From a virus (lineage: Duplodnaviria; Heunggongvirae; Uroviricota; Caudoviricetes), in the IMG/VR virus record IMGVR_UViG_2531839532_000006: a DNA stretch of 13,767 nt. One strand, given 5' to 3'. Both the position numbers and the translations under genes were made by a program. Positions 1-11,664 of the stretch are shown one piece after another (the first letter of the stretch is position 1; every line of letters starts with the position of its first letter). The notes beneath the pieces are model-generated. The model was not told the DNA's origin, did not search any database, and saw nothing but the letters and a program-made list of their open reading frames with translations.

Positions 1-77
1 GCAGAAGAATTAGCCTGAAATTAAAAGGTCTGACTCCAATTGAATATCGGAATCAGACCTATATGCCTCGTGTTTAA
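1..77 (+). CDS. 3' end of an IS3-family transposase gene (OrfB C-terminus), 5'-truncated by the window edge
   Basis: Frame beginning at nt 3 reads RRISLKLKGLTPIEYRNQTYMPRV then TAA at 75-77. The KLKGL(T/S)P.EYR ending is characteristic of IS150-group IS3-family OrfB proteins, recalled from memory. Only 25 codons are visible. Confidence 0.4.
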   Translation, partial: RRISLKLKGLTPIEYRNQTYMPRV

Positions 78-252
78 CTGTCCAACTTTTTGGGGTCAGT
101 ACAATCTGAGGCCAATTTCATGCTAGACACATGTAGGTTAGCCTCTTACGTGCCGAAAGGCACGGAGAAGCAGGCTATTGTTAACACCAAGCTGTAATGT
201 CCCCTTTGAACCATTCTAAAATGTCCCCAGACAATTCTCTGGGGGATTTTTC

Positions 253-1566
253 ATGATCAAAGAGACTGTTACGATGAGTCATAAGGAACTCCACCGACTT
301 CAGACTATTCAGGAACAAGCTGCGGCACGCATTGGCATTTCTATTCGGCAGGTTAAACGTCTGGTGCAACGGTATAGAAATGAAGGGCCTTCTGGTCTGG
401 TTTCCCACCGACGTGGAAAGCGTCCTAATAATTCCTTTTCTACTGAATTCAGAGCAACAGTAATTTCACTCCTCAAAGGCCGTTACGCTGATTTTGGACC
501 TACGTTTGCGTGCGAAAAATTGCGCGAGATACACGGTTTATCTTTATCCGTTGAAACTCTCAGAAAGTGGATGATAGAAGAGGGGTTATGGCGTGAACGC
601 CGTCGTAAAATTGCCCGTATATATCAACGCCGCATGCGACGACCATCTTACGGTGAACTGATCCAGATTGATGGCTCACCTCATGACTGGTTTGAAAATC
701 GAGGCCCCAGATGTACACTGATCGTTTTCATTGATGATGCCACCAGTGCGTTGATGGCGTTGCGTTTTGTGCCTGCTGAAACAACCCGGGCTTACATGGA
801 AACCCTCCGGGGTTACCTTAATGATCATGGCGTACCGCTCGCTCTCTACTCTGATAGACACAGTATATTCAGGGTAAATAACCCAGAGCGGGAAGGTGAG
901 CTGACCCAGTTCACTCGTGCGATAAAGACACTGGGCATCGAGCCAATCCATGCCAACAGCCCGCAGGCAAAAGGGCGGGTAGAGCGCGCCAATCAGACAC
1001 TACAGGACAGGCTGGTCAAAGAAATGCGGCTTCAGAATATCAGTGATATTGAAACAGCAAATGCATGGTTGCCGACCTTTATTGAAGCCTATAACAACCG
1101 GTTCGCTACGTCGCCTCGTACTACTGATAATGCTCATCTTGATGTGCACCATTCTGAAGAGGAACTGGGTTATATCTTCAGCCTACAGGCGAAGCGCGTT
1201 CTGTCTAAAAATCTCACTTTCCAGTACAAAAGCAGTGCGTTTCAGGTACGCAGTGAGGGCCGGGGATATCGACTTAGGCATTCGGTTGTTACTGTATGCG
1301 AGAACTTTGACGGTGAAATTAACGTTCTGTATGACGGGAAAGCGCTGGGCTGGGAAAAGTATGTTGATGGCCCGGAGCCTATACCACTGGATGATGAAAA
1401 GAGTGTCCATGAACGAGTGGATAATGCCCGTATTGATTTACGCTCAAAATACTATGTTAAACCTAAAGCTGACCATCCCTGGCTTACGCGCCGAACGCAA
1501 AGTCATCAGCAAGTTAAGCCCCCGAAGTTACCTAAAAAGAAGCCTGATCCCGATAAAAAAGATTGA
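253..1566 (+). CDS. DDE-type (rve integrase-core) IS transposase with N-terminal HTH; family not resolved (ISNCY / IS481-like)
   Basis: 437-aa ORF. N-terminus is HTH-like (RIGISIRQVKRLVQRY). Core has acidic residues spaced like a DDE triad (IQIDGSPHDW ... ALYSDRHSIF ... GRVERANQTLQ). ATG at 274 (MSHKEL) is an alternative start. Confidence 0.75.
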   Translation: MIKETVTMSHKELHRLQTIQEQAAARIGISIRQVKRLVQRYRNEGPSGLVSHRRGKRPNNSFSTEFRATVISLLKGRYADFGPTFACEKLREIHGLSLSVETLRKWMIEEGLWRERRRKIARIYQRRMRRPSYGELIQIDGSPHDWFENRGPRCTLIVFIDDATSALMALRFVPAETTRAYMETLRGYLNDHGVPLALYSDRHSIFRVNNPEREGELTQFTRAIKTLGIEPIHANSPQAKGRVERANQTLQDRLVKEMRLQNISDIETANAWLPTFIEAYNNRFATSPRTTDNAHLDVHHSEEELGYIFSLQAKRVLSKNLTFQYKSSAFQVRSEGRGYRLRHSVVTVCENFDGEINVLYDGKALGWEKYVDGPEPIPLDDEKSVHERVDNARIDLRSKYYVKPKADHPWLTRRTQSHQQVKPPKLPKKKPDPDKKD

Positions 1567-2002
1567 AACCAAGATCGATTCGGCTGAGTGCATATCCATT
1601 CATAGGGTAGATTCTTAAGTCGCGTTTCTGGTGTTCATTTTCGGGTGGTTTGTTACTTGTTTTACCGGGGATATGCCAGAAACGCGCTGAGTCAGTCTGG
1701 GCGGTGCGCGTAATGAGGCGTTATGGTAAATAGCCTATGCTAATGTCCGCTAAGAGCAAGAAGCGGAAGTTGGCAGTTTTGTGGACTGTCCCCACAAAAG
1801 TGACTACAGAAATAGTTGCAATTCATAATTGATCATGGGTTGTCAGTTAAACTCGTGGCGATTTAAATAGACTAATTGGGAGTGCGTCCATTACTTATAT
1901 CTTGTAATGTTAACTATCAGAAATGATACAAAGATAATATGTCTTTAAAGAAAAGGCTGATGGCGAAAAGTGGCCCGATGAGGGCCACAATACGGCTGTC
2001 AC

Positions 2003-2335
2003 TTAGACGTAAATATCAATGGTGCCAGCGGTATTTGTATCGTCTTTTTTCTCTTCTTTTTTATCAGGCTGAACTGTCGCGTCTTCATTCTTTTTCTCTG
2101 CCTGCTGCCTTAACAACTGCTCCAGTTGAGCCCAGAGGCTTTCAATTTGCTTCTGTACCAATGCAGCCATTTCTTTTTTCTGCTGTGTCGTCATCCCCTC
2201 TTCCGATGAGATTTTCCCAAGCTTTTCAGTCAGCACCTGAATTTGTCTTGTGATTTTGGCTATTTCTGATGTTCCTTCCGGGGCGGAGTTGTTTGAAATA
2301 ACGGTTGAGGTATTTCCCTGAATTGTGACAGACAT
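2003..2335 (-). CDS. flxA: FlxA-like protein (Gln/Lys-rich, coiled-coil-like; FliA-regulated in E. coli K-12 Qin prophage)
   Basis: 110-aa ORF with RBS AAAAGGAGAAATCT before the ATG. A sigma-28 type promoter lies immediately upstream. Gene order flxA / ydfV / relB / relE / hokD matches the Qin prophage as I recall it. Confidence 0.6.
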   Translation of the reverse strand: MSVTIQGNTSTVISNNSAPEGTSEIAKITRQIQVLTEKLGKISSEEGMTTQQKKEMAALVQKQIESLWAQLEQLLRQQAEKKNEDATVQPDKKEEKKDDTNTAGTIDIYV

Positions 2336-2358
2336 AGATTTCTCCTTTTAAAAAAGCA

Positions 2359-2385
2359 CTATCGGCATGCACAAAAAAATCTTTA
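2359..2385 (-). promoter_or_regulatory. sigma-28 (FliA) class III promoter for flxA: -35 TAAAGATT, 11-nt spacer, -10 GCCGATAG (read on minus strand)
   Basis: Reverse complement of 2359-2385 gives TAAAGATT-N11-GCCGATAG, against the consensus TAAAGTTT-N11-GCCGATAA. It sits about 25 nt upstream of the flxA start codon. Confidence 0.6.
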
Positions 2386-2537
2386 ATCGTATTTCTTGTG
2401 TCATTAATTGTTTGATGTTCAGATTGTTTTCCTCGCGGGCTGGCGCGCCTCAGAAAGTAAAGCTTGTTGACAGGGGTAAACGTTCGGCAATAATTTTCTG
2501 CCGCATGCGGGTGTTGCATAAAACGTGTTACGTTCCT

Positions 2538-2843
2538 TTATCGACAGGTCAGGTCACCGCTCACCCGCCGACGAGAAAGCAACACTGACATGCTAAAGCA
2601 AAAAATAGATGAATAAGTTGAGTTGTGCATATGTAGCCTGACCGTCACAAAGTATATGGTGTCTGTACCAGTAAGATGATGGCCGGACTCTTTAAAAACG
2701 AGCTGACCTGCACAATACAGGATGGACTTAGCAATGGCTGCTCCTGGCACAAAGCGGACAGTGATCACCGTTCTTACGACTACTTTCTGACTTCCTTCGT
2801 GACTTGCCCTAAGCATGTTGTAGTGCGATACTTGTAATGACAT
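2538..2843 (-). CDS. ydfV: Hypothetical protein, ydfV-like by position and length (101 aa)
   Basis: 101-aa ORF divergent from relB. Its start codon falls inside the relBE operator region and no RBS is evident, so it may not be translated. Confidence 0.3.
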   Translation of the reverse strand: MSLQVSHYNMLRASHEGSQKVVVRTVITVRFVPGAAIAKSILYCAGQLVFKESGHHLTGTDTIYFVTVRLHMHNSTYSSIFCFSMSVLLSRRRVSGDLTCR

Positions 2844-2856
2844 TTGTAATTACAAG
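2832..2856 (+). promoter_or_regulatory. relBE operator (relO): TTGTAAT repeats including the 12-bp perfect palindrome TTGTAATTACAA
   Basis: CTTGTAATGACATTTGTAATTACAAG lies directly upstream of the relB RBS (AGAGGTG) and start codon. The palindrome at 2844-2855 is seen directly. Confidence 0.6.
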
Positions 2857-2867
2857 AGGTGTAAGAC

Positions 2868-3107
2868 ATGGGTAGCATTAACCTGCGTATTGACGATGAA
2901 CTTAAAGCGCGTTCTTACGCCGCGCTTGAAAAAATGGGTGTAACTCCTTCTGAAGCGCTTCGTCTCATGCTCGAGTATATCGCTGACAATGAACGCTTGC
3001 CGTTCAAACAGACACTCCTGAGTGATGAAGATGCTGAACTTGTGGAGATAGTGAAAGAACGGCTTCGTAATCCTAAGCCAGTACGTGTGACGCTGGATGA
3101 ACTCTGA
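2868..3107 (+). CDS. relB: RelB antitoxin (ribbon-helix-helix)
   Basis: 79-aa ORF MGSINLRIDDELKARSYAALEKMGVTPSEALRLMLEYIADNERLPF... recognised as E. coli RelB. Its stop overlaps the relE start (ATGA at 3104-3110). Confidence 0.9.
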   Translation: MGSINLRIDDELKARSYAALEKMGVTPSEALRLMLEYIADNERLPFKQTLLSDEDAELVEIVKERLRNPKPVRVTLDEL

Positions 3108-3394
3108 TGGCGTATTTTCTGGATTTTGACGAGCGGGCACTAAAGGAATGGCGAAAGCTGGGCTCGACGGTACGTGAACAGTTGAAAAAGAAGCTGGTTG
3201 AAGTACTTGAGTCACCCCGGATTGAAGCAAACAAGCTCCGTGGTATGCCTGATTGTTACAAGATTAAGCTCCGGTCTTCAGGCTATCGCCTTGTATACCA
3301 GGTTATAGACGAGAAAGTTGTCGTTTTCGTGATTTCTGTTGGGAAAAGAGAACGCTCGGAAGTATATAGCGAGGCGGTCAAACGCATTCTCTGA
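3107..3394 (+). CDS. relE: RelE mRNA-interferase toxin
   Basis: 95-aa ORF MAYFLDFDERALKEWRKLGSTVREQLKKKLVEVLESPRIEANKLRGMPDCYKIKLRSSGYRLVYQVIDEKVVVFVISVGKRERSEVYSEAVKRIL recognised as E. coli RelE, translationally coupled to relB. Confidence 0.9.
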   Translation: MAYFLDFDERALKEWRKLGSTVREQLKKKLVEVLESPRIEANKLRGMPDCYKIKLRSSGYRLVYQVIDEKVVVFVISVGKRERSEVYSEAVKRIL

Positions 3395-3465
3395 ACCAAA
3401 GCATGACATCTCTGTTTCGCACCGAAGGTGACACTTCTGCTTTGCGTTGACAGGAGAAGCAGGCT

Positions 3466-3621
3466 ATGAAGCAGCAAAAGGCGATGTTAATCGCCCTGAT
3501 CGTCATCTGTTTAACCGTCATAGTGACGGCACTGGTAACGAGGAAAGACCTCTGCGAGGTACGAATCCGAACCGGCCAGACGGAGGTCGCTGTCTTCACA
3601 GCTTACGAACCTGAGGAGTAA
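3466..3621 (+). CDS. hokD: Hok-family small membrane toxin (HokD / RelF)
   Basis: 51-aa ORF below the ORF-track cutoff, translated by hand: MKQQKAMLIALIVICLTVIVTALVTRKDLCEVRIRTGQTEVAVFTAYEPEE. RBS GGAGAAGCAGG precedes the ATG at 3466; stop TAA at 3619-3621. One TM helix plus the conserved Hok C-terminus. Confidence 0.8.
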   Translation: MKQQKAMLIALIVICLTVIVTALVTRKDLCEVRIRTGQTEVAVFTAYEPEE

Positions 3622-3689
3622 GAGACCTGGCGGGGGAGAAATCCCTCGCCACCTCTGATGTGTCAGGCATCCTCAACGCACCCGCACTT

Positions 3690-3716
3690 AACCCGCTTCG
3701 GCGGGTTTTGTTTTTT
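3690..3716 (+). terminator. Rho-independent terminator ending the relBE-hokD operon
   Basis: AACCCGC-TTCG-GCGGGTT hairpin followed by TTTGTTTTTT. Confidence 0.7.
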
Positions 3717-3788
3717 CCTGGCATTCTGGTTTACAATTCGCACGTCAGCCTGAACACCTGACACCTGCTGCGCCAGCAGAGAAAACAG

Positions 3789-4061
3789 ATGGCGCACAAA
3801 ACCAAATTTCACAATTCTGATACCGACCTTGCCATCCGGCATGAGCGGCGTTCACACGCATTTAAAACCGACTGGTACCAACACCCACCATGTACTGAAG
3901 AACAGGCCGAATGGCTGATTCATAACTACCGCAGACGTGGATATGAGTTTAGGAAAGCCCTCACCCTCGATTATCGTCACTGGATAATCTACGTCAGACT
4001 CCCTTATTCCGAACGCCCACCGCGTCCGTCCCGCACATTCCAGCAACGCATCTGGAGGTAA
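3789..4061 (+). CDS. Small basic hypothetical protein, rem-like by position
   Basis: 90-aa ORF between hokD and the DUF968 gene. Its stop TAA (4059-4061) is 1 nt before the GTG start of the next gene. Confidence 0.4.
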   Translation: MAHKTKFHNSDTDLAIRHERRSHAFKTDWYQHPPCTEEQAEWLIHNYRRRGYEFRKALTLDYRHWIIYVRLPYSERPPRPSRTFQQRIWR

Positions 4062-4062
4062 C

Positions 4063-5109
4063 GTGCGGGTATTACTTCGACCTGTTCTGGTACCGGAACT
4101 CGGGCTGGTGATCGTTAAGCCGGGCCGTGAATCCATGCCGGTATTCCACAATACCCGGGTACTGGTGGAGCCGGAACCGAAAAGCATGCGTAATCTGCCG
4201 TCCGGGGTCGTTCCTGCCGTTCGCCAGCCGCTGGTGGAAGACAAAACATTGCTGCCGTTTTTCAGTAACGCACGGGTAATTCGTGCTGCTGGTGGTGCTG
4301 GTGCATTGTCTGACTGGCTGTTGCGCAATATTAAATCCTGCCAGTGGCCACACGGCGATTATCATCACAGCGAAACCGTTATTCACCGTTATGGTACCGG
4401 CGCAATGGTGTTGTGCTGGCACTGCGACAACCAGCTGCGTGACCAGACATCCGAATCACTCGAGCAACTTGCTCATCAAAACCTGTCAGCATGGATGATT
4501 GACGTCATCGGTCACGCAATAAGCGGTACGCAGGAGCGTGAATTATCTCTGGCTGAATTATCCTGGTGGGCGGTCCGCAATCAGGTGGCGGACGCGCTAC
4601 CGGAAGCGGTATTACGTCGTTCGCTGGGGTTGCGTGCGGAAAAAATCCGCTCAATGTACCGTGAAAGCGACATCGTACCGGGAGAGCAGACCGCCACCAG
4701 CATACTGAAGCAGCGCACAAAAAATCTTGCGCCGCTGCCTCACGCCCACCAGCAAAACCCGCCACAGGAAGAGACGGTGGTCAGCATTGCCGTTGATCCT
4801 GAGTCTCCGGAATCTTTCATGAAACGACCTAAACGTCGCCGCTGGGTTAACGAGAAATACACACGCTGGGTGAAGACACAGCCGTGTGCGTGTTGTGGTA
4901 AGCCAGCCGACGATCCCCATCACCTGATTGGTCATGGTCAGGGCGGAATGGGGACAAAATCTCACGATATTTTCACGCTACCGCTGTGTCGGGAGCATCA
5001 CAACGAGCTTCATGCGGATCCTCTGGCGTTCGAAGAAAAGCATGGTTCTCAGGTTGATTTAATTTTTCGTTTTCTTGATCACGCCTTTGCAACTGGCGTG
5101 CTTGGGTAA
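4063..5109 (+). CDS. ydfU: DUF968-type prophage protein (YdfU-like) with a C-terminal Cys/His HNH-like motif
   Basis: 348-aa ORF with GTG start, SD GGAGG 4 nt upstream. C-terminus CACCGKPADDPHHLIGHGQGGMGTKSHDIFTLPLCREHHNELH looks like a zinc-binding HNH-type fold. Position upstream of rusA and Q matches Qin ydfU (349 aa) as I recall it. Confidence 0.55.
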   Translation: MRVLLRPVLVPELGLVIVKPGRESMPVFHNTRVLVEPEPKSMRNLPSGVVPAVRQPLVEDKTLLPFFSNARVIRAAGGAGALSDWLLRNIKSCQWPHGDYHHSETVIHRYGTGAMVLCWHCDNQLRDQTSESLEQLAHQNLSAWMIDVIGHAISGTQERELSLAELSWWAVRNQVADALPEAVLRRSLGLRAEKIRSMYRESDIVPGEQTATSILKQRTKNLAPLPHAHQQNPPQEETVVSIAVDPESPESFMKRPKRRRWVNEKYTRWVKTQPCACCGKPADDPHHLIGHGQGGMGTKSHDIFTLPLCREHHNELHADPLAFEEKHGSQVDLIFRFLDHAFATGVLG

Positions 5110-5121
5110 AAGAGGTGACTG

Positions 5122-5496
5122 ATGCTCATAGATTTGGTTTTACCTTACCCGCCGACGGTGAACACTTACTGGCGACGCCGTGGCAGCACATATTTTGTAT
5201 CAAAAGCCGGGGAGCGTTATCGCCGGGCAGTGGCGCTTATTGTTCGCCAGCAGCGGCTGAAATTAAGCCTGTCCGGAAGGCTGGCGATAAAGGTGATTGC
5301 AGAGCCACCGGATAAGCGTCGTCGCGACCTGGACAATATCCTGAAAGCACCGCTGGATGCGCTGACGCATGCGGGAGTGTTAATGGACGATGAGCAGTTT
5401 GATGAAATCAATATCGTTCGTGGTCAGCCAGTATCTGGAGGACCTCTGGGGGTGAAGATTTACCCCATAATGCATGAAGAGCAGGTCAAAAAATGA
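5122..5496 (+). CDS. rusA: RusA-family Holliday-junction resolvase
   Basis: 124-aa ORF with LPYPPTVNTYWRRRG and RRRDLDNILKAPLDALTHAGVLMDDEQ motifs typical of RusA. SD AGAGGTG upstream; nin-region position immediately before Q. Confidence 0.85.
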   Translation: MLIDLVLPYPPTVNTYWRRRGSTYFVSKAGERYRRAVALIVRQQRLKLSLSGRLAIKVIAEPPDKRRRDLDNILKAPLDALTHAGVLMDDEQFDEINIVRGQPVSGGPLGVKIYPIMHEEQVKK

Positions 5497-6314
5497 AACT
5501 GGAAGATTTACCGAAATACTACTCCCCAAAATCCCCTTGCCTGACCGATGCATCGGCCTCAACGTCAAAAGATGCGCTGAGTATCACTGATGTGATGGCC
5601 GCGCAGGGCATGACACAGAATCGGGCTGAGATGGGGTTTTCTGCGTTCCTGGGGAAAATGGGCATCAGTATGAATGACAGGGCGCGGGCAACAGAATTAC
5701 TGGCAGATTATGCACTCAGTCGGTGCGATCGTGTGGCGGCGTTGAGAAAACTTCCGGCAGAAATAAAACCGGTAGTGATGCGCATTATGGCTACGTATGC
5801 GTTTGAAGATTATGCCCGCAGTGCAGCGAGTAAAAAGCAGTGTCCTTGTTGCCGTGGGGAAAAATTTATTGAAAGCATAGTTTTTACAAACAAGGTCCAG
5901 TATCCGGATGGTAAGCCGCCGGTATGGGCAAAGTGTACGAAAGGTGTGTATCCGTCTTACTGGGAAGAATGGAAAAAAGTCAGGGAGGTGGTAAAAGTTG
6001 CCTGTCCGGAGTGTGGCGGAAAGGGTGAGGTTTCCACCGCCTGTAAGGATTGCCGTGGGCGTGGTGTCGCCATTCATCGTGAAGAGTCGGTAAAACGTGG
6101 TATGCCTGTTATCAGAGACTGCCAGCGTTGTGATGGTCGTGGCTGTGAAAGACTACCATCAACGGAGGCATTTAATGCCATACGCAAAGTGACGAGTGCT
6201 ATCACGCTTGATACGTGGAAAAAATCAGTGAAACGCTTTTACGATACGTTGGTGGTTCGGTTTGACATTGAAGAGGCATGGGCGGAGCGGCAGTTAAAGA
6301 GGGTAACGCGATAG
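5493..6314 (+). CDS. Q: Late-gene antiterminator Q (zinc-ribbon-rich; Q82 / QuuQ-like)
   Basis: 273-aa ORF whose start overlaps the rusA stop (ATGA). Contains CPCCRG, CPECGGKG, CKDCRGRG and CQRCDGRG repeats. A promoter plus intrinsic terminator follow immediately downstream, as expected for Q. Confidence 0.7.
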   Translation: MKLEDLPKYYSPKSPCLTDASASTSKDALSITDVMAAQGMTQNRAEMGFSAFLGKMGISMNDRARATELLADYALSRCDRVAALRKLPAEIKPVVMRIMATYAFEDYARSAASKKQCPCCRGEKFIESIVFTNKVQYPDGKPPVWAKCTKGVYPSYWEEWKKVREVVKVACPECGGKGEVSTACKDCRGRGVAIHREESVKRGMPVIRDCQRCDGRGCERLPSTEAFNAIRKVTSAITLDTWKKSVKRFYDTLVVRFDIEEAWAERQLKRVTR

Positions 6315-6319
6315 TGTTG

Positions 6320-6347
6320 TTGATTTTTCCCGAATCTGTGGTAAATT
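6320..6347 (+). promoter_or_regulatory. Candidate late promoter PR' (-35 TTGATT, 16-nt spacer, -10 TAAATT) with presumed overlapping qut site
   Basis: Promoter-like hexamers sit directly after the Q stop codon and about 50 nt upstream of a strong intrinsic terminator. Confidence 0.45.
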
Positions 6348-6395
6348 TGCTCTAACGATGGGCGTTTTATGCCTGACGTTAGAAGATTTTTTACA

Positions 6396-6418
6396 CCCCG
6401 CCGCCTGGCGGGTTTTTT
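6396..6418 (+). terminator. tR'-like intrinsic terminator downstream of PR'
   Basis: CCCGCC-GCCT-GGCGGG hairpin followed by TTTTTT. Confidence 0.65.
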
Positions 6419-6538
6419 ATGACTGAAATCGCGTCAGTACAGTAAACGCGCTGGTGGCGGTGAATACCTGTCTTTCAGCTTGCTGGCTTTTTCGACAAGA
6501 GTTATTGGTGTGTCACGTTAACCGGAAAAGGAAAAGAC

Positions 6539-6736
6539 ATGCTAAAACAGCAGGATATGACAGAAACCGCCAGAGTGGTGTTTAATGAATTAAGCGTTAC
6601 CGACCCGGCGACAGTCGGGGAGATAGCGCAGAATACTTACCTTTCACGCGAACGCTGCCAGTTAATACTGACTCAGCTGGTTATGGCGGGTCTGGCAGAC
6701 TATCAGTTCGGTTGTTACAGACGCCTTCCGCAGTGA
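6539..6736 (+). CDS. Small hypothetical protein, possibly a winged-helix DNA-binding protein
   Basis: 65-aa ORF with a good RBS (AAAGGAAAAG, about 5 nt spacing). Its stop codon lies within an intrinsic terminator hairpin. Confidence 0.45.
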   Translation: MLKQQDMTETARVVFNELSVTDPATVGEIAQNTYLSRERCQLILTQLVMAGLADYQFGCYRRLPQ

Positions 6737-6747
6737 AGGCTTTTTTA
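6723..6747 (+). terminator. Intrinsic terminator overlapping the stop codon of the 65-aa ORF
   Basis: GCCTTC-CGCAGT-GAAGGC hairpin followed by TTTTTTATTT. Confidence 0.5.
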
Positions 6748-6763
6748 TTTGTGGTAAATGGGC

Positions 6764-6794
6764 GGCTGGTGGGTGTTAGGGGCACCCACCAGCC
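6764..6794. repeat. Perfect 12-bp inverted repeat (GGCTGGTGGGTG / CACCCACCAGCC, 7-nt loop) with no U-tract
   Basis: Seen directly in the leader of the methyltransferase gene. A second copy of the PR' core TGTGGTAAAT sits just upstream at 6752-6761. Confidence 0.6.
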
Positions 6795-6886
6795 ATCTGC
6801 TCATGCGTCCGGATCACAAGCAAACCTCAGGCCCACTGCTTTGCGCAAAAGCAGAATGAGCCTATCAGAGACAGGCTTAATGATCC

Positions 6887-7936
6887 ATGCTTAATACTGT
6901 AAAAATATCCAGTTGTGAGTTAATCAACGCCGACTGCCTGGAATTTATCCGGTCGTTACCCGAAAATTCTGTTGACCTGATAGTCACGGACCCGCCGTAC
7001 TTTAAAGTGAAGCCTGAGGGCTGGGATAACCAGTGGAAGGGCGACGATGATTACCTGAAGTGGCTGGACCAGTGTCTGGCGCAGTTCTGGCGGGTGCTGA
7101 AACCTGCCGGAAGTCTTTACCTGTTCTGTGGTCATCGCCTGGCATCTGATATCGAAATCATGATGCGTGAACGCTTCAGTGTGCTGAACCATATTATCTG
7201 GGCGAAGCCGTCCGGACGCTGGAACGGATGCAACAAGGAAAGCCTGCGGGCGTATTTCCCCGCCACAGAGCGCATTCTGTTCGCGGAACATTATCAGGGG
7301 CCGTATCGTCCGAAAGATGCCGGGTATGCGGCGAAGGGCAGTGCACTGAAACAGCATGTGATGGCCCCGCTGATTTCTTACTTTCGTGATGCGCGCGCGG
7401 CCCTGGGGATAACGGCAAAACAGATTGCAGATGCCACAGGAAAGAAAAACATGGTGTCGCACTGGTTCAGTGCCAGTCAGTGGCAGCTACCGAATGAAAG
7501 CGATTATCTGAAATTACAGGCGCTGTTTGCCCGGGTGGCAGAAGAGAAGCATCGGCGTGGTGAACTGGAAAAGCTCCACCACCAGCTGGTGGATACGTAT
7601 ACCTCACTGAACCGGCAGTATGCGGAGCTGCTGAGTGAATATAAACATCTGCGGCGGTATTTTGGCGTGACGGTGCAGGTGCCGTATACCGATGTGTGGA
7701 CGCATAAACCGGTGCAGTTCTATCCCGGGAAACATCCGTGCGAAAAACCGGCAGAAATGCTGCAGCAGATAATCAGCGCAAGCAGTCGTCCGGGTGACCT
7801 GGTTGCAGATTTTTTTATGGGCTCAGGTTCAACGGTAAAAGCTGCACTGGCGCTCGGGCGTCGTGCGATTGGCGTTGAACTGGAGACCGGACGTTTTGAG
7901 CAGACAGTCAGGGAAGTTCAGGATTTAATCGTTTGA
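6887..7936 (+). CDS. Orphan DNA methyltransferase, beta-class (DPPY motif; most likely N6-adenine)
   Basis: 349-aa ORF with motif IV DLIVTDPPYF near the N-terminus and an FxGxG-type AdoMet motif DFFMGSGST near the C-terminus. No adjacent restriction endonuclease candidate. Confidence 0.85.
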   Translation: MLNTVKISSCELINADCLEFIRSLPENSVDLIVTDPPYFKVKPEGWDNQWKGDDDYLKWLDQCLAQFWRVLKPAGSLYLFCGHRLASDIEIMMRERFSVLNHIIWAKPSGRWNGCNKESLRAYFPATERILFAEHYQGPYRPKDAGYAAKGSALKQHVMAPLISYFRDARAALGITAKQIADATGKKNMVSHWFSASQWQLPNESDYLKLQALFARVAEEKHRRGELEKLHHQLVDTYTSLNRQYAELLSEYKHLRRYFGVTVQVPYTDVWTHKPVQFYPGKHPCEKPAEMLQQIISASSRPGDLVADFFMGSGSTVKAALALGRRAIGVELETGRFEQTVREVQDLIV

Positions 7937-7947
7937 AACGGATGAGA

Positions 7948-7976
7948 TTGCAGAATTAATTACGCACCATTATTAT
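7948..7976 (+). promoter_or_regulatory. Candidate sigma-70 promoter for the tRNA genes (-35 TTGCAG, 17-nt spacer, -10 TATTAT)
   Basis: Hexamers with ideal spacing end about 10 nt before the tRNA 5' end. Confidence 0.45.
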
Positions 7977-7985
7977 TCTGCTCCC

Positions 7986-8061
7986 GGCCCTTTAGCTCAG
8001 TGGTGAGAGCGAGCGACTCATAATCGCCAGGTCGCTGGTTCAAATCCAGCAAGGGCCACCA
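7986..8061 (+). tRNA. ileZ: tRNA with CAU anticodon, ileZ-like (tRNA-Ile2 after lysidine modification, or tRNA-Met)
   Basis: Hand-folded cloverleaf: acceptor GGCCCTT / AAGGGCC, D-arm GCTC...GAGC, anticodon loop CTCATAA, T-arm GCTGG-TTCAAAT-CCAGC, encoded CCA. One A-C mismatch at the top of the anticodon stem. Confidence 0.8.
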
Positions 8062-8161
8062 TCACAAACCGCCATTAGCTTATCAGGAAGAGCAGACGAC
8101 ACGATAACAGGGTTGTTGGTGCGGGGGCGGGTCCCCGATGGCGGTCCATTATCGGTATTCA

Positions 8162-8235
8162 GCGTTGTTAGCTCAGCCGGACAGAGCAATTGCCTTCTAA
8201 GCAATCGGTCACTGGTTCGAATCCAGTACAGCGCG
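8162..8235 (+). tRNA. tRNA-Arg (anticodon UCU), argO-like; 3' CCA not encoded
   Basis: Hand-folded cloverleaf: acceptor GCGTTGT / ACAGCGC (one G-U pair), D-arm GCTC...GAGC, anticodon stem ATTGC / GCAAT with loop CTTCTAA, T-arm ACTGG-TTCGAAT-CCAGT. Discriminator G is followed by CTA. Confidence 0.8.
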
Positions 8236-8375
8236 CTATATTCATTCTTCCAGATTCCTTCCGGCAGAGCCTTATACTGAAATATACCTGGCTCAGGATA
8301 TTGTTGAAAATATTTTATGTTTGTCAAAAATAAAAGTTCTGTTAAGTATTGATTGAGTGTTTGTTATACGGTCTA

Positions 8376-8702
8376 ATGGTTTTTTCAGCATTAAATATTT
8401 ATCATTCATATGGTGTGGGTAGAGTGAATATTGATGAGGCGTCGGGGTGTTTCATCCTTAGGCAGCGTATTGATATAGTCAATGCAGGACGAGCAAAGGC
8501 CTTCAGCCGTTTGACAGTTTTGTTCTGTACTCCTGATCGTCTTTCGGGAAGAGACGTTATTATTCTGAATAGTGATGCTATACAGAGGGTTTGCGATGAG
8601 TTCATGGTTGCTAATTCAGAATTATTTGCTCTTGTTCAGGAGTACAACAGAATAGCCAGGACCTGTGGTATGGATGAACTTCGGATTACTCATCTGGGGT
8701 AG
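8376..8702 (+). CDS. Hypothetical protein (first gene of the cargo island), function unknown
   Basis: 108 aa from the ATG at 8376; the ORF track extends it to a TTG at 8349. No clear RBS; AT-rich upstream region with a weak promoter-like TTGTCA at 8321. Confidence 0.35.
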   Translation: MVFSALNIYHSYGVGRVNIDEASGCFILRQRIDIVNAGRAKAFSRLTVLFCTPDRLSGRDVIILNSDAIQRVCDEFMVANSELFALVQEYNRIARTCGMDELRITHLG

Positions 8703-9093
8703 ATACATATCTGGATTATCACTTGTTACGGTAAAAAGTGATTGCTTACTGTTTTTGTGAGTGGCATTGCAGCAGCCGGATAATGTCAGTGCTGGCTGAC
8801 GGTGTGCTGGTGGCGGGTGTGGTGGTTGTTGCTTTCCCGTTGCTGAAAAAGAAAACGCCAGACTGTTAGCCGGGTATCAGTTAGCGGGAGAAATTTTTAA
8901 ATACTTCACAATTCAGGCGGTTGACTGTTGTCTGGTTTGCGGGGAGTTTGTTAAAAGAAACTGGCATGGTGAATCCCCCTGTGCGGAGGGGCAATCAGCG
9001 AGTAGGTATATGGGATAATCGCGGATTCAGGTGCTGGTACTGAATTCACCGGGAGGCACCCGGCACCATGCAATGGCACATAGCGCCACTCTC

Positions 9094-9120
9094 CAGCCCC
9101 TCTCCGGAGGGGCTGTTTAT
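9094..9120 (+). terminator. Intrinsic terminator inside the cargo island
   Basis: CAGCCCCTC-TCCG-GAGGGGCTG hairpin followed by TTTATATTGATTTT. Confidence 0.5.
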
Positions 9121-9146
9121 ATTGATTTTGTCAGATGTGAGTAAAC

Positions 9147-9180
9147 TCCTTATGGACTTTGTTGTTTTAGTCCATAAGGA
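9147..9180 (-). terminator. Perfect 12-bp stem-loop overlapping the 3' end of the minus-strand ORF (possible terminator)
   Basis: TCCTTATGGACT-(10-nt loop)-AGTCCATAAGGA. On the minus strand it is followed by GTTTACTC, only moderately U-rich. It encodes the last residues (PYGLKQQSP) of ORF 9150..9485. Confidence 0.4.
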
Positions 9181-9485
9181 CATATTTGCAGAGTGCAACG
9201 GTTATTAAAGCATTCATTCAATACGTTATCTGTATTTGTAGGACATTCCTGGCTGTTTTTGATTAAATTCCAGAATGTTTTATTGAATGGTACTACGTTG
9301 TAAATGGTTACAGGTAGCACTTTGTTATTGAGCATGATACCTGTGTGAGTCAGTGTAAATATACTTTCAGGAGGTAAGAAAGCATCCGATTGATACCAGA
9401 TTATTAATTTTATTTTACTCCATATGACTGAAAAAGATATTCCGCATGATGGCTGGATAACTGTATCAATCACAATCCACTTCAT
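9150..9485 (-). CDS. Hypothetical protein in AT-rich cargo DNA, antisense to the late operon
   Basis: 111-aa ORF with a plausible RBS AAGGAAG about 5 nt before the ATG on the minus strand, and a possible -10 TATACT upstream. No signal peptide recognised; several Cys near the C-terminus. Confidence 0.4.
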
Positions 9486-9745
9486 TTAGCTTCCTTGTTT
9501 ATGCCTTGCTGGTGATGTTCTGAAAAGTATAAATGATATTTTTGAATATAAACCATAGAGCAGAATTATTTTTCTGATGTTGTTTATTGTTTATTTAAAT
9601 GCAGGGTGGTTTATATCTCGTCTTGTAGTTTATCCATGCATATCTGCTTGATGATCAGGTTTCTATTTAAGGTATGGTTTTGTGTTTTTTCTGTGTTACA
9701 TGTCTGGTATTTTAAAGAATTATTTTTCAGATGGTGGAAAGAACC

Positions 9746-9934
9746 ATGGCATTTAAACACTATGATGTTGTCAGGGCGGCGCCGCCGTCAGATCTTGCGG
9801 AAAAGCTGACACATAAACTGAAAGAGGGCTGGCAGCCGTTTGGTAGTCCGGTGGCCATAACCCCTTATACCCTGATGCAGGCGATTGCAGCAGAAGGTGA
9901 TGTGGTGGTCAGTGGTGCAACTGAGCCCGAGTGA
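9746..9934 (+). CDS. Small hypothetical protein (62 aa), possibly a DUF1737-type small prophage protein
   Basis: MAFKHYDVVRAAPPSDLAEKLTHKLKEGWQPFGSPVAITPYTLMQAIAAEGDVVVSGATEPE with RBS-like GGTGGAAAGAA upstream. The ORF track starts it at 9731. The family assignment is a weak recollection only. Confidence 0.45.
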   Translation: MAFKHYDVVRAAPPSDLAEKLTHKLKEGWQPFGSPVAITPYTLMQAIAAEGDVVVSGATEPE

Positions 9935-10089
9935 TACTACGTCATCGTACTGGCCCGGCATTCCAGGCCATAAAAGACAGTCTGGCAGTGGGACTAAATG
10001 TACTGACGCTGACGGATATTACCAAAAATGCAACGTATGGCGTTGAGATAGAAAGTCTGGTGCTGGAGATAAATGCACCGGCATCATCA
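9931..10089 (+). CDS. Possible small ORF (52 aa, GTG start) overlapping the previous stop (GTGA)
   Basis: VILRHRTGPAFQAIKDSLAVGLNVLTLTDITKNATYGVEIESLVLEINAPASS. No ATG in frame; could be a coupled gene or the frameshifted remainder of the upstream gene. Confidence 0.2.
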
Positions 10090-10177
10090 TAAAAAGTGAG
10101 CCAGTCAAATGGAAGGTATCGTTAAACTCACCGGTAGTGTCAGTGGGTCGTCTGAGATGCCTGCATGAGTTATCAGA

Positions 10178-10207
10178 GCCATCAGTACTTAACTGGTGGC
10201 TTTTTTT
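10178..10207 (+). terminator. Strong intrinsic terminator immediately upstream of the holin gene
   Basis: GCCATCAGT-ACTTA-ACTGGTGGC hairpin (one G-U pair) followed by TTTTTTT. Confidence 0.6.
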
Positions 10208-10242
10208 ATTGTTGTCAGCTTCCGGATAACGGGAGACGGGGT

Positions 10243-10458
10243 ATGTACCAGATGGAAAAAATCACAACAGGTGTGTCATACACCACGTCAGCGGTGGGAA
10301 CGGGCTACTGGTTCCTGCAGTTGCTGGACAGGGTTTCCCCGTCTCAGTGGGCGGCAATAGGCGTGCTGGGGAGTCTGCTGTTTGGGCTGCTGACATATCT
10401 GACTAACCTGTATTTCAAAATCAGAGAGGACCGTCGTAAGGCGGCACGGGGAGAGTAA
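10243..10458 (+). CDS. S: Class II holin, phage-21 S21-type pinholin, with dual-start motif (Met1 / Met4)
   Basis: 71 aa [79 protein letters not shown] sits 7 nt upstream. The longer ORF-track version from 10165 is an unsupported N-terminal extension. Confidence 0.85.
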
Positions 10459-10462
10459 TTCA

Positions 10463-10777
10463 ATGACTCAAAACTATGAACTGATTGTGAAAGGGATCCG
10501 CAATTTTGAGAATAAAGTTACGGTAACTTTAGCGTTACGGGACAAAAAACGCTTTGACGGTGAAATTTTTGACCTGGACATCTCGCTGGACCGTGTTGAA
10601 GGTGCCGCGCTGGAGTTTTATGAGGCAGCAGCCAGAAGGAGCATCAGACAGGTCTTCCTGGATGTTGCTGCCGGGTTATGTGAAGGGGACGAGCTGTTGC
10701 CAGAAACGCGCCCCTGTTCAGAGGCGCGGTATACCATAAAAATTAACAGTTCTGATAACTCGATTACGGGTTGTTAG
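10463..10777 (+). CDS. ydfR: YdfR-like hypothetical protein between holin and endolysin
   Basis: 104-aa ORF starting 5 nt after the holin stop. Position and length match ydfR of the Qin lysis cassette as I recall it. Confidence 0.5.
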   Translation: MTQNYELIVKGIRNFENKVTVTLALRDKKRFDGEIFDLDISLDRVEGAALEFYEAAARRSIRQVFLDVAAGLCEGDELLPETRPCSEARYTIKINSSDNSITGC

Positions 10778-10832
10778 CTTTTTGCAGTTGGCTTTCCAGT
10801 ATCTTTCATTGGTAGCATCCTGATAAATATCC

Positions 10833-11366
10833 ATGAGCGCAAAAATCAAATACGGCCTGTCAGCTGCTGTTCTGGCGCTGATTGCTGCAGGCGCGTCTGC
10901 TCCTCAGATACTTGACCAGTTTCTGGACGAAAAAGAGGGTAACCACACAACGGCATACCGCGATGGTTCCGGCAACTGGACCATCTGTCGGGGGGCCACG
11001 ATGGTGGATGGAAAACCCGTTTTTCCCGGTATGAAACTGTCGAAGGAAAAATGCGACCAGGTCAACGCCATTGAGCGTGATAAGGCGCTGGCATGGGTGG
11101 AGAAAAACATCAAAGTGCCATTGAGCGAACCCCAGAAAGCGGGGATCGCGTCATTCTGTCCGTACAACATTGGTCCCGGTAAGTGTTTCCCGTCGACGTT
11201 TTATAAACGAATTAATGCAGGTGATCACAGGGGAGCGTGTGAGGCGATTCGCTGGTGGATTAAGGACGGTGGCAGAGACTGCCGTATTCGTTCAAACAAT
11301 TGCTACGGTCAGGTATCCCGTCGTGACCAGGAGAGCGCGCTGGCGTGCTGGGGTATCGACAGATAA
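10833..11366 (+). CDS. R: SAR endolysin (T4-lysozyme-like muramidase with N-terminal signal-anchor-release domain)
   Basis: 177-aa ORF with a Gly/Ala-rich weakly hydrophobic N-terminus (YGLSAAVLALIAAGASAP) and an E-8aa-D-5aa-T catalytic spacing (DEKEGNHTTAYRDGSGNWT). Partner of the pinholin. Confidence 0.9.
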   Translation: MSAKIKYGLSAAVLALIAAGASAPQILDQFLDEKEGNHTTAYRDGSGNWTICRGATMVDGKPVFPGMKLSKEKCDQVNAIERDKALAWVEKNIKVPLSEPQKAGIASFCPYNIGPGKCFPSTFYKRINAGDHRGACEAIRWWIKDGGRDCRIRSNNCYGQVSRRDQESALACWGIDR

Positions 11367-11456
11367 GCAGAATATTTTGCTGAAAAATAAGGCATGGCCA
11401 CGCGGGCGGATAACATGAAATCCTGCGAAGTGGCGAAACGTAAGTGAATAAAAGTA

Positions 11457-11490
11457 AAAACCCCGTTTGTTGGCACCAAGCGGGGTTTTG
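11457..11490 (+). terminator. Intrinsic terminator-like hairpin between endolysin and spanin genes
   Basis: AAAACCCCG-(15-nt loop)-CGGGGTTTT followed by GTGTTT. Confidence 0.5.
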
Positions 11491-11525
11491 TGTTTCCTGA
11501 CTCCGGAAAAGTCAAAGGAGAAAGT

Positions 11526-11663: not shown

Positions 11664-11664
11664 A

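What the first reader, a model, noticed from the sequence alone, without database searches (positions are those of the whole stretch)
2832..3716. Dual-toxin relB-relE-hokD operon inside the prophage
A type II pair (RelB/RelE) and a Hok-family membrane toxin sit in one operon with an operator palindrome upstream and an intrinsic terminator downstream. hokD lies only about 70 bp after relE, so the usual long hok leader carrying mok and sok appears absent. Whether Hok is expressed, and how it is restrained, is therefore an open question in this copy.
Basis: partly seen in the sequence, partly recalled or inferred. Interest (0 to 1): 0.4.

Follow-up and report, generated by a model that had tools for sequence, protein, structure and literature searches.

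The report
Transposon-borne relBE spliced onto hokD
This is the well-known relB-relE-hokD operon of the E. coli K-12 Qin prophage, and this more complete copy shows why hokD has no mok/sok leader: a transposon that carries relBE at its outward-facing end inserted into the ribosome-binding site of a normal hok/sok gene, which close relatives of this transposon have done repeatedly in plasmids and prophages.

Summary
relB (2868-3107), relE (3107-3394) and hokD (3466-3621) encode proteins identical to K-12 RelB/RelE/HokD. The relO palindrome is at 2831-2856 and a terminator at 3690-3716. No mok/sok leader lies between relE and hokD. As an operon it is already known (relBEF).

What the window adds is the cause. 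Bases 179-3452 form a 3,274-bp transposon of the IS1202/ISNCY family (ISEsa1-like). It has 26-bp inverted ends (19/26), a 437-aa transposase, cargo (flxA, ydfV), and relBE at the right end reading outward. A perfect 15-bp target duplication, GGAGAAGCAGGCTAT, flanks it; this is the hok Shine-Dalgarno through the AT of the ATG. Removing it in silico restores an intact hok/sok locus.

The displaced hok leader lies 3.3 kb upstream. It is complete in E. coli W and cut by IS150 here (only 103-178 remains). K-12 has lost the left end, which hides this origin.

In other Enterobacterales the same two ends enclose different cargo. In 20 of 39 distinct right junctions they abut the start region of a hok gene, involving at least 12 different Hok proteins.

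hokD therefore keeps its SD, ORF, fbi and terminator but depends on the RelBE-repressed promoter. I found no published description of this hok targeting.

The parts
1..102 (+). Right end of an IS150-type (IS3 family) element inserted into the displaced hok leader
   Evidence: Window 100-2100 is 100% identical to strain 300709. There an IS3-like IS150-family transposase is annotated immediately upstream (L008 1109-2478). IS3-family ends abut the same leader position in L010 and L024.
103..178 (+). Orphaned 3' half of the hok mRNA leader. It holds the mok start (ATG 120) and the region complementary to Sok. On the minus strand it holds the presumed sok promoter (-10 TAACCT, -35 GTGCCT).
   Evidence: 83-89% identical to the leaders of intact loci (L003 2442-2516, L006 1501-1576) and 98.7% to L167. 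In E. coli W the same position carries a complete leader (RF01794 104 bits, L007 2406-2577). The promoter assignment is inferred by analogy with R1, recalled from memory.
120..197 (+). Truncated mok' reading frame (25 codons) that now runs into the transposon's left end and stops at a TAA inside IRL
   Evidence: Read directly from the sequence. It is homologous to the in-frame mok extension seen in intact L006 (sequence).
164..178 (.). Left copy of the 15-bp target-site duplication GGAGAAGCAGGCTAT
   Evidence: The sequence occurs once in the empty site L167.
179..204 (+). Left inverted repeat (IRL) TGTTAACACCAAGCTGTAATGTCCCC
   Evidence: 19/26 match to the reverse complement of 3427-3452. Identical IRL sequences bound related elements in many genera, with homology starting at 179.
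253..1566 (+). Transposase, 437 aa, ISNCY/IS1202 family (ISEsa1-like)
   Evidence: NCBIfam transpos_ISNCY_2, 455 bits against a cutoff of 250. 92-98% aa identity over residues 1-437 to copies in Klebsiella, Enterobacter, Kluyvera and others. RefSeq labels it IS1202-like ISEsa1 family.
1762..2739 (.). Variable cargo segment: flxA-like gene (2003-2335, minus strand) and most of the ydfV ORF (2538-2843, minus strand)
   Evidence: This segment is replaced by unrelated genes in sister elements. K-12 annotation gives flxA and ydfV.
2740..3452 (+). Conserved right-end module of the transposon: relBE promoter/operator, relB, relE, 32-nt spacer, IRR
   Evidence: About 99% identical in elements whose transposase part is only about 90% identical. 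Found on 784 plasmids.
2831..2856 (.). relO operator palindrome
   Evidence: Identical to K-12.
2868..3107 (+). relB antitoxin/repressor
3107..3394 (+). relE mRNA-interferase toxin
3427..3452 (-). Right inverted repeat (IRR); reverse complement TGTCAACGCAAAGCAGAAGTGTCACC
   Evidence: Homology to sister elements in unrelated flanks ends at 3452-3456 (L016, L020, L024, L049, L080).
3453..3467 (.). Right copy of the 15-bp target-site duplication; it supplies hokD's Shine-Dalgarno (GGAG) and the AT of the ATG
3466..3621 (+). hokD (relF), a Hok-family membrane toxin. Codon 47 is TAC followed by G (3604-3607), the TACG motif reported as the A-to-I editing site.
   Evidence: Editing of hokD is reported in PMC5630033.
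3671..3683 (+). fbi (fold-back inhibition) element CCTCAACGCACCC, left without its tac partner
   Evidence: In the intact L006 mRNA the MFE pairs this element with the 5' GGGUGCUUGAGG. In the window that 5' partner is absent.
3690..3716 (+). Intrinsic terminator of the native hok mRNA, now terminating the relBE-hokD transcript

Best explanation
The relB-relE-hokD operon is the junction between a transposon and a hok gene. An IS1202-family (ISEsa1-like) transposon occupies window 179-3452. It carries its transposase at the left end, variable cargo in the middle, and a promoter-proximal relBE module at the right end reading outward with no terminator. It inserted into the translation-initiation region of a complete prophage hok/sok locus and duplicated 15 bp (GGAGAAGCAGGCTAT). 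The left copy of the duplication stays with the hok promoter, tac, mok start and sok gene, now 3.3 kb away and here further cut by IS150. The right copy gives the hok ORF back its Shine-Dalgarno and start codon directly after the transposon end.

hokD has therefore lost its own promoter, tac, mok coupling and the Sok target, but keeps SD, ORF, fbi and terminator. Its only evident route to transcription is read-through from the RelB2-RelE-repressed relBE promoter. That is shown for K-12 by others and inferred here.

Its translation is probably kept low because mok coupling is gone and the SD is predicted to be base-paired. The predicted partner is the 3' end of relE in the full transcript, or the fbi element in processed 3' fragments. 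Full toxicity may also need the Tyr47-to-Cys mRNA edit. These three points are inferred or predicted, not shown.

Insertion at hok start sites is a habit of this transposon clade rather than a single accident.
For: Transposon anatomy:
- Perfect 15-bp direct repeats at 164-178 and 3453-3467, abutting 26-bp inverted ends (19/26).
- Intact 437-aa ISNCY-family transposase.

Empty sites:
- Deleting 179-3467 in silico gives a gapless 317-nt, 98.7% match to the intact hok/sok locus of APEC O2-211, which has one copy of the 15-mer.
- Intact loci L003, L004 and L006 match the window only from 3452 onward.

Displaced leader:
- It is complete in E. coli W directly against IRL (RF01794 104 bits; sequence).
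- K-12 homology starts only at window 1382, so K-12 lacks IRL and the leader.

Mobility of the whole unit:
- The same IRL and IRR bound elements of 2,575-6,093 bp with 13-16-bp direct repeats in Enterobacter, Kluyvera, Leclercia, Pantoea and Pseudocitrobacter.
- One 6,093-bp element (99.9% and 98.7% identical copies) sits in three different hok genes with three different duplications.

Target preference (left flanks). Of 39 distinct right junctions:
- 17 run straight into a Hok ORF, covering at least 12 different Hok proteins.
- 3 are a hok-type TSD followed by a second IRL (tandem insertions).
- 4 begin GGAG or GGAA followed by another IS end.

Expression:
- Only one terminator lies in 2650-3850, after hokD.
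- relF is on the relBE transcript in K-12 (PMC3598666).
- hokD mRNA editing is reported in PMC5630033.
Against: - No transposition experiment exists. Everything rests on comparative sequence.
- All E. coli and Shigella copies share one site and one duplication, so within E. coli this is a single old event. RefSeq flags the E. coli transposase as incomplete, although the ORF is continuous and aligns over 437 residues.
- The left module is about 90% and the right module about 99% identical between the window and the plasmid elements. Modules have therefore been exchanged by recombination, and the present cargo need not be what originally transposed.
- 14 of 39 distinct junctions are not at hok.
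- Survival bias could add to true targeting, since insertions that disarm a toxin on a mobile replicon are harmless and spread.
- The statements about HokD translation rest on thermodynamic folding with moderate probabilities (0.4-0.8) and are untested.
- The literature search was limited to open-access text. Pedersen & Gerdes 1999 and Ramisetty & Santhosh 2016 could not be read.
Confidence: 0.85

Rival explanations
1. This is a plain, already-explained case. hokD is a hok gene whose 5' regulatory region was lost by deletion or illegitimate recombination when relBE landed nearby, and no transposon is involved.
For: K-12, the reference, shows only relBE next to a leaderless hokD with no left transposon end. 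The literature describes it as relBE integrated into hokD (PMC6379469).
Against: There is a perfect 15-bp duplication exactly at both homology breakpoints, with inverted repeats abutting it. The complete leader is retained at the other end in E. coli W. In-silico excision restores an empty site. The same ends sit in many other hok genes with their own duplications.
Confidence: 0.04
2. A 1.6-kb ISEsa1 insertion sequence (as defined in ISfinder) lies next to an independent relBE cassette. The unit 179-3452 is not one mobile element, and relBE reached hok separately.
For: ISfinder lists ISEsa1 as 1,609 bp with 15/22 IRs (PMC10132070). The transposase and relBE modules have different divergence, 90% against 99%. 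An IRR-like sequence (16/22) ends at 2733, just before the conserved relBE module starts at 2740.
Against: No IRR-like sequence lies near 1787 in the window. The duplications flank the whole IRL..IRR unit in 8 loci of different length. An identical 6,093-bp unit sits in three hok genes. Harmer & Hall found no duplication for the 1,609-bp definition. 1,610 bp is exactly the distance from IRL to an ISEsa2 insertion in the IncHI2 form, which suggests the database entry is truncated. The 2733 repeat is absent from sister elements.
Confidence: 0.08
3. The enrichment at hok start sites reflects selection and hitch-hiking, not transposase targeting. Insertions are random, but only those that silence a resident toxin on plasmids or prophages persist and spread.
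For: 14 of 39 junctions are elsewhere. hok loci are also hot spots for unrelated IS: IS150 insertions in experimental evolution (PMC5419217), and IS3-family ends at the same leader position in three loci.
Against: The left edge of the duplication falls at the same nucleotide after the conserved ...GGCAA|GGAG in hok genes that otherwise differ. In the hokE type, where SD-ATG spacing differs, the edge stays fixed relative to the leader rather than the ATG. Insertions occur in tandem at one site (L024, L234, L242). Orientation is nearly constant, with one reversed case (L023). Selection for inactivation would accept any position in about 400 bp.
Confidence: 0.15
4. hokD in this operon is a silent relic. 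It is transcribed but never translated to a meaningful level, so the operon is functionally just relBE.
For: Pedersen & Gerdes 1999 reported hokD among the inactive chromosomal hok genes (as cited in PMC5630033). mok coupling is lost, and the SD is predicted mostly paired.
Against: The ORF, SD, fbi, terminator and editing codon are conserved at 100% protein identity in over 1,100 E. coli genomes. The cloned ORF is toxic (bioRxiv 10.1101/2025.08.07.668861). The relF part is the most abundant fragment of the operon's mRNA after toxin-induced cleavage (PMC3598666). Every independent insertion preserves the SD-ATG-hok arrangement through the duplication.
Confidence: 0.4

Closest known systems
relBEF (relB-relE-hokD) operon of the Qin cryptic prophage, E. 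coli K-12
   Same: Identical RelB, RelE and HokD proteins. Window 1382-3715 is 99.8% identical in DNA. Same operator, same 71-nt relE-hokD spacer, same terminator.
   Different: K-12 has lost the left 1.2 kb of the transposon (IRL and most of the transposase; remnants are annotated ydfX/ydfW) and the displaced hok leader. The window keeps IRL, a full-length transposase ORF, the left duplication and 76 nt of leader. Downstream of the terminator the window continues into a different lambdoid lineage (84% to K-12, 99.2% to a second prophage of strain 300709).
[quoted passage not shown]
   Same: Same Hok family ORF. L003 is 100% identical from window 3452 to 3720. Same SD, fbi and terminator.
   Different: The window's hokD lacks the roughly 170-nt leader (tac, mok start, Sok target, sok gene) that RF01794 detects at 104-117 bits in intact loci. 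It cannot be regulated by Sok and has no promoter of its own.
ISAba32/ISAjo2 subgroup of the IS1202 family, which targets XerCD (dif/pdif/xrs) sites
   Same: Same transposase family, ends beginning 5'-TGT, occasional passenger genes, and strongly site-specific, oriented insertion next to a short conserved motif that is common on plasmids (PMC10132070; bioRxiv 10.1101/2022.12.17.520857).
   Different: Those IS make 3-6-bp duplications and target Xer sites. The element here makes 13-16-bp duplications (the ISTde1-type length class). It targets the hok leader/SD and carries relBE. Siguier et al. state that the long-duplication subgroups showed no targeting and were almost absent from plasmids. 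This clade is on 784 plasmids.
ISEsa1 as catalogued in ISfinder (1,609 bp, IR 15/22, no target duplication)
   Same: RefSeq names the transposase 'IS1202-like element ISEsa1 family'. The conserved left module is about 1,610 bp.
   Different: The unit bounded by inverted repeats and duplications is 2.6-6.1 kb and ends after relBE. The 1,609-bp end coincides with an ISEsa2 insertion point in the IncHI2 form. That would explain why no duplication was found. The ISfinder sequence itself was not examined.

Membership tests
relBE type II toxin-antitoxin system | Adjacent antitoxin-then-toxin genes with RelB and RelE/ParE-fold domains | tested here: met
   Pfam RelB 112 bits; ParE_toxin 51 bits; the ORFs overlap by 1 nt. 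100% identical to K-12 RelB and RelE.
relBE type II toxin-antitoxin system | Palindromic operator overlapping the promoter, for autorepression by RelB2-RelE | tested here: met
   12-nt inverted repeat at 2831-2856, identical to the K-12 sequence. Binding itself was not tested.
[quoted passage not shown] | Hok/Gef family toxin ORF | tested here: met
   HOK_GEF 83 bits; identical to K-12 HokD.
[quoted passage not shown] | Long 5' leader with tac and the mok reading frame whose translation is coupled to hok | tested here: not met
   RF01794 is absent from the operon. Homology to intact loci begins 14 nt before the ATG. There is no in-frame or overlapping upstream ORF with a start codon and SD. 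A detached fragment lies at 103-178.
[quoted passage not shown] | cis-encoded antisense Sok RNA with its own promoter, complementary to the mok start region of the same mRNA | tested here: not met
   No promoter-like site on either strand in 2650-3850 and no Sok/leader match. The Sok-complementary region sits on the displaced fragment, which IS150 truncates at 102/103.
[quoted passage not shown] | 3' fbi element and terminator | tested here: met
   CCTCAACGCACCC at 3671-3683 pairs with tac in the intact homologue's MFE. Terminator at 3690-3716.
IS1202 family (formerly the ISNCY IS1202 group) transposable element | DDE transposase of the family | tested here: met
   NCBIfam transpos_ISNCY_2, 455 bits (cutoff 250), residues 17-368.
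IS1202 family (formerly the ISNCY IS1202 group) transposable element | Imperfect terminal inverted repeats of about 24-26 bp beginning 5'-TGT | tested here: met
   179-204 against the reverse complement of 3427-3452, 19/26, both starting TGT. Family description.
IS1202 family (formerly the ISNCY IS1202 group) transposable element | Target-site duplication of a subgroup-typical length (5-6, 15-17 or 27-28 bp) | tested here: met
   15 bp here and 13-16 bp in sister elements. A Hahella relative reads as a 16-bp duplication in its flanks.
IS1202 family (formerly the ISNCY IS1202 group) transposable element | Demonstrated mobility: the same element in different sites, plus empty sites | tested here: met
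   A 6,093-bp element lies in three hok genes. Empty sites are L003, L004, L006 and L167. Comparative evidence only.
ISEsa1 sensu ISfinder | 1,609-bp element with its own right inverted repeat | tested here: not met
   No IRR-like sequence near window 1787.

The most novel reading that the evidence does not exclude
A clade of IS1202-family (ISEsa1-like) transposons uses the translation-initiation region of hok toxin genes as a preferred attachment site. It recognises the conserved end of the hok leader (TAGCC...GGCAA|GGAG) and makes a roughly 15-bp duplication that regenerates the hok ribosome-binding site. It carries a terminator-less relBE module at its outward-facing end. Each insertion therefore disconnects a type I hok/sok addiction module from its RNA control and rewires the toxin into a type II relBE operon. 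The classical K-12 relBEF operon would be a decayed copy of such an event. The ISfinder entry ISEsa1 would be a truncated description of these elements.
Probability: 0.6. Interest if true: 0.7.

Novelty: new variant of a known kind. Interest (0 to 1): 0.55.

Why it matters
The cause is a different matter.

- It explains an oddity dating from the 1980s: why relF/hokD sits leaderless behind relBE.
- It shows that a type II toxin-antitoxin module travels as the fixed end of a transposon.
- It identifies a second kind of site-specific targeting in the IS1202 family, hok start regions in addition to Xer sites. This is in a subgroup reported not to target anything.
- The element sits on hundreds of large conjugative plasmids of Klebsiella and Enterobacter. 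There it replaces the plasmid's own hok/sok control with relBE and carries variable cargo. It therefore bears on plasmid stability and on annotation (ISEsa1, ydfW/ydfX, and 'hokD' loci with or without sok).
- It makes the question of how HokD is restrained directly testable, because natural isogenic pairs exist: occupied and empty sites, and leaders that are complete, cut or absent.

Tried and rejected
There is no RF01794 hit even at E<=10 and no promoter-like site on either strand. Positions 3427-3452 are the transposon's IRR, and 3395-3426 belong to its conserved right-end module. The consensus scan also failed to find the sok promoter in an intact locus, so it is insensitive. The argument rests on homology instead.
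- **Hybrid promoter from the TTGACA at the IRR tip (3447-3452).** No -10 lies at the right distance. Rejected by reading the sequence.
- **The IRR tip as a surrogate tac.** In the 3395-3716 fragment, 3443-3455 pairs with fbi 3670-3680 at p>0.9. The fbi regions of other targeted hok genes lack the complement. This is probably a coincidence specific to hokD, and I kept it only as a prediction.
- **A small upstream ORF ending at the ATGA overlap (GTG 3428).** It has no usable SD. Rejected as a mok substitute.
- **Internal IRR-like sequence ending at 2733 (16/22).** It is not present in sister elements. Left unexplained.
- **Weak isrK-like match on the hokD 3' UTR.** It scores 27 bits against a threshold of 50. 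It reflects two hairpins rather than family membership.
- **Papers that could not be read.** Ramisetty & Santhosh 2016 and Fozo et al. 2008 are not held, and Pedersen & Gerdes 1999 was not found. Their content is cited only through other papers.
- **Literature searches.** Searches linking ISEsa1, ISNCY or IS1202 with relBE or hok found nothing relevant.
Full report
**1.

- relB, 2868-3107
- relE, 3107-3394
- hokD, 3466-3621

Their Pfam families are RelB, ParE_toxin and HOK_GEF. A 12-nt-arm palindrome lies at 2831-2856, just upstream of relB. The only terminator-like site between 2650 and 3850 is at 3690-3707 followed by a T run. The gap between relE and hokD is 71 nt.

**2. It is the known K-12 operon**

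Window 1382-3715 is 99.8% identical to the Qin prophage of E. coli K-12 MG1655. The three proteins are identical to K-12 RelB, RelE and HokD. The only differences inside 2832-3716 are two substitutions and a one-base T-run difference in the hokD 3' UTR. RefSeq annotates the same three genes in the closest genomes. About 1,160 of 5,426 complete E. coli genomes carry this arrangement.

What the literature already says:
- relF (hokD) lies on the relBE transcript, and its part of the mRNA accumulates after toxin-induced cleavage (PMC3598666).
- Chromosomal hokD is counted among the inactive hok genes, but it is transcribed and A-to-I edited at a Tyr codon (PMC5630033).
- The cloned ORF is toxic (bioRxiv 10.1101/2025.08.07.668861).
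- The 51-codon hokD has been described as a 70-codon ancestor shortened by integration of relBE (PMC6379469).

As stated, therefore, the finding is correct and already known.

**3. What is missing, and where homology breaks**

The Rfam model of the hok leader/sok region (RF01794) finds nothing in the window, either at gathering score or at E<=10. It scores 104-117 bits on hokD loci that lack relBE (L003, L004, L006). Those loci match the window only from position 3452 onward, 14 nt before the hokD ATG. L003 is then 100% identical over 3452-3720, and L006 is 99.2% identical over 3452-13406.

**4. Why it is missing: a transposon**

The break at 3452 has a counterpart. Window 103-178 is the 3' half of a hok leader, and it ends in GGAGAAGCAGGCTAT. 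The same 15-mer recurs at 3453-3467.

Features of the segment between the two copies:
- Immediately inside the repeats lie TGTTAACACCAAGCTGTAATGTCCCC (179-204) and, at 3427-3452 on the other strand, TGTCAACGCAAAGCAGAAGTGTCACC. They match at 19 of 26 positions. The chance of that at a fixed position is about 3e-7 (my calculation; alignment).
- Between them is a continuous 437-aa ORF that scores 455 bits on NCBIfam's ISNCY-family transposase model. RefSeq calls it 'IS1202-like element ISEsa1 family'.
- The rest is flxA, ydfV and relBE.

Deleting 179-3467 in silico yields a sequence that aligns without gaps over 317 nt, at 98.7%, to the intact hok/sok locus of APEC O2-211. That locus has a single copy of the 15-mer.

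The state of the displaced leader differs between strains:
- In E. coli W the complete leader (RF01794, 104 bits) abuts the left inverted repeat.
- In the window and in strain 300709, an IS150 has additionally cut that leader at 102/103.
- K-12 has lost everything left of window 1382. That removes the leader, the left repeat and most of the transposase, whose C-terminal remnants are annotated ydfW and ydfX. This is why the origin cannot be seen in the reference genome.

**5. The whole unit is mobile and relBE is its fixed right end**

A scan of one genome per species with the transposase, followed by blastn, showed two conserved parts. The left part is window 179 to about 1761, at about 90% identity. 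The right part is window 2740-3452 (relBE promoter, relB, relE, IRR), at about 99% identity. Both recur in Enterobacter, Kluyvera, Leclercia, Pantoea, Pseudocitrobacter, Huaxiibacter and Superficieibacter. They are separated by unrelated cargo, such as a cytochrome b plus cation-diffusion transporter, or LysR regulators with membrane proteins.

Homology stops at 179 and at 3452-3456 in unrelated flanks. The bounded units are 2,575-6,093 bp long and flanked by 13-16-bp direct repeats.

Evidence that the whole unit moves:
- One 6,093-bp element is present at 99.9% and 98.7% identity in three different hok genes with three different duplications (L010, L016, L013).
- A 4,600-bp form is the same element without a 1,481-bp ISEsa2 insertion.

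The relBE module occurs on 784 plasmids, 617 of them conjugative, mostly from Klebsiella and Enterobacter. In IncHI2 plasmid pK29 the gene order is ISKpn8, ISNCY transposase, ISEsa2, cytochrome b, CDF transporter, relB, relE, then the hok region.

ISfinder's ISEsa1 is listed as 1,609 bp with weak inverted repeats, and Harmer & Hall found no target duplication for it (PMC10132070). 1,610 bp is exactly the distance from IRL to the ISEsa2 insertion. I infer that the database entry describes only the left module. I could not inspect the entry itself.

**6. Target preference**

I collected right junctions from the genome loci, a viral-contig scan and a metagenome scan. This gave 39 distinct junction sequences:

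| Junction type | Count |
|---|---|
| Continues directly into an SD-ATG-Hok ORF | 17 |
| hok-type duplication followed by a second IRL (tandem insertion) | 3 |
| Starts GGAG/GGAA, then another IS end | 4 |
| Deletion into hokD | 1 |
| Elsewhere | 14 |

The 17 direct junctions involve at least 12 different Hok proteins, of hokD, hokC-like, hokE-like, PndA-like and several R1-like types.

Left flanks tell the same story. The insertion follows ...TAGCCTCTTAC-(short hairpin)-GGCAA | GGAG.... In the hokE-type target, where the SD-ATG spacing is shorter, the duplication keeps its position relative to the leader rather than to the ATG. One insertion is in the opposite orientation (L023). More distant relatives (Scandinavium; Hahella, 62% aa identity) are not at hok.

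Such precision argues for recognition by the transposition machinery, not only for survival of harmless insertions. No experiment separates the two, however.

Site-specific insertion is known in this family for the short-duplication subgroup, which targets Xer sites. Siguier et al. state that the long-duplication subgroups showed no targeting and were nearly absent from plasmids.

**7. What this means for hokD**

- *Shown by sequence.* hokD retains its SD and start (supplied by the duplication), ORF, the editing codon TAC-G at 3604-3607, fbi (3671-3683) and terminator. It has lost its promoter, tac, the mok start and the Sok target. These are on the other side of the transposon, where mok' now terminates inside IRL (120-197).
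- *Shown by others for K-12.* Transcription comes from the relBE promoter.
- *Inferred.* Sok from this or paralogous loci cannot act on this mRNA, because the complementary region is not in it.
- *Predicted by folding.* In a model of the whole transcript, the SD (3454-3460) pairs with the last codons of relE (3384-3391, p 0.5-0.74). Ribosomes finishing relE could then open it. In the 3' fragment 3395-3716, the IRR tip plus SD (3443-3455) pairs with fbi (3670-3680, p>0.9), mimicking the tac-fbi fold-back. The second pairing is not available for other targeted hok genes, so it is probably fortuitous.

My best account is that HokD is restrained mainly by RelB2-RelE autorepression of transcription. 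Secondary restraints are poor translation initiation and possibly the need for Tyr47-to-Cys editing. Whether it is ever made at a toxic level remains open. I put 0.4 on 'silent relic'.

**8. Comparison and novelty**

The operon is a member of relBE (all features met). It contains a Hok-family gene, but it is not a hok/sok system, because the mok, sok and tac tests are not met. The enclosing element meets the defining features of an IS1202-family transposable element with a long duplication. It does not fit the ISfinder definition of ISEsa1.

Searches of the held literature found nothing that links ISEsa1, ISNCY or IS1202 with relBE or hok. Two key subscription papers could not be read, so prior description cannot be excluded.

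I rate the operon as already known. I rate the transposon origin and its hok targeting as a new variant of a known kind.

Noticed in passing
window 1-102 / 103; also L010 about 4750-4870 and L024 about 1520-1575: An IS3-family element (IS150 here, ISKpn8 in IncHI2 plasmids) ends at the same position of three different hok leaders, just 5' of AAYCYGAGGCC. hok leaders therefore seem to be a hot spot for a second, unrelated IS. IS150 insertions next to hokC, hokE and mokB in evolution experiments are reported in PMC5419217.
   Followed up: partly
L170, L168, L217, L236 (metagenome contigs), right junction of the transposon: In four junction variants the IRR is followed by GGAGAT, GGAGTT, GGAGT or GGAAAT. 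After that comes the end of yet another IS (GTATGGGTCCACCACATATTGC...), with an integrase-like ORF on the opposite strand. This is a third element that keeps landing at the hok SD.
   Followed up: no
window 3716-3772 onward: Right after the hokD terminator the window stops resembling K-12 Qin (rem is absent; about 84% identity further on). It becomes 99.2% identical to a different lambdoid prophage of strain 300709 that carries an intact hok/sok. The hok locus is thus a recombination joint between prophage lineages.
   Followed up: partly
window 2708-2733 (minus strand): An IRR-like sequence (16/22 to IRL) ends 6 nt before the conserved relBE module begins at 2740. It is absent from sister elements. 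It could be chance (about 0.007 expected in the scanned region) or a trace of how relBE was captured.
   Followed up: partly
window 7986-8058, 8162-8235, 8935-9124: Two tRNA genes lie here (annotated Ile and Arg in the near-identical L006). An STnc100 sRNA match (132 bits) lies in the prophage late region, downstream of a DNA methyltransferase.
   Followed up: no
window 3630-3711: There is a sub-threshold match of the hokD 3' UTR to the Salmonella prophage sRNA isrK (27 bits, threshold 50, E 6e-4). It is driven by the two hairpins.
   Followed up: no
window 253-1566: RefSeq annotates this transposase in identical or near-identical E. coli sequences as 'incomplete, missing C-terminus', plus a separate gene ydfW. 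Yet the ORF is continuous (437 aa) and aligns end to end with plasmid copies. K-12's ydfW and ydfX look like leftovers of this transposase gene.
   Followed up: partly
L029 (Hahella sp.), 4929 and 6395: A 62%-identical relative occurs in at least 12 copies in one Hahella genome. It is about 1.47 kb long, without relBE. In L029 two copies lie in tandem sharing what reads as a 16-bp duplication. Simple IS forms of this lineage therefore exist and also make long duplications.
   Followed up: partly
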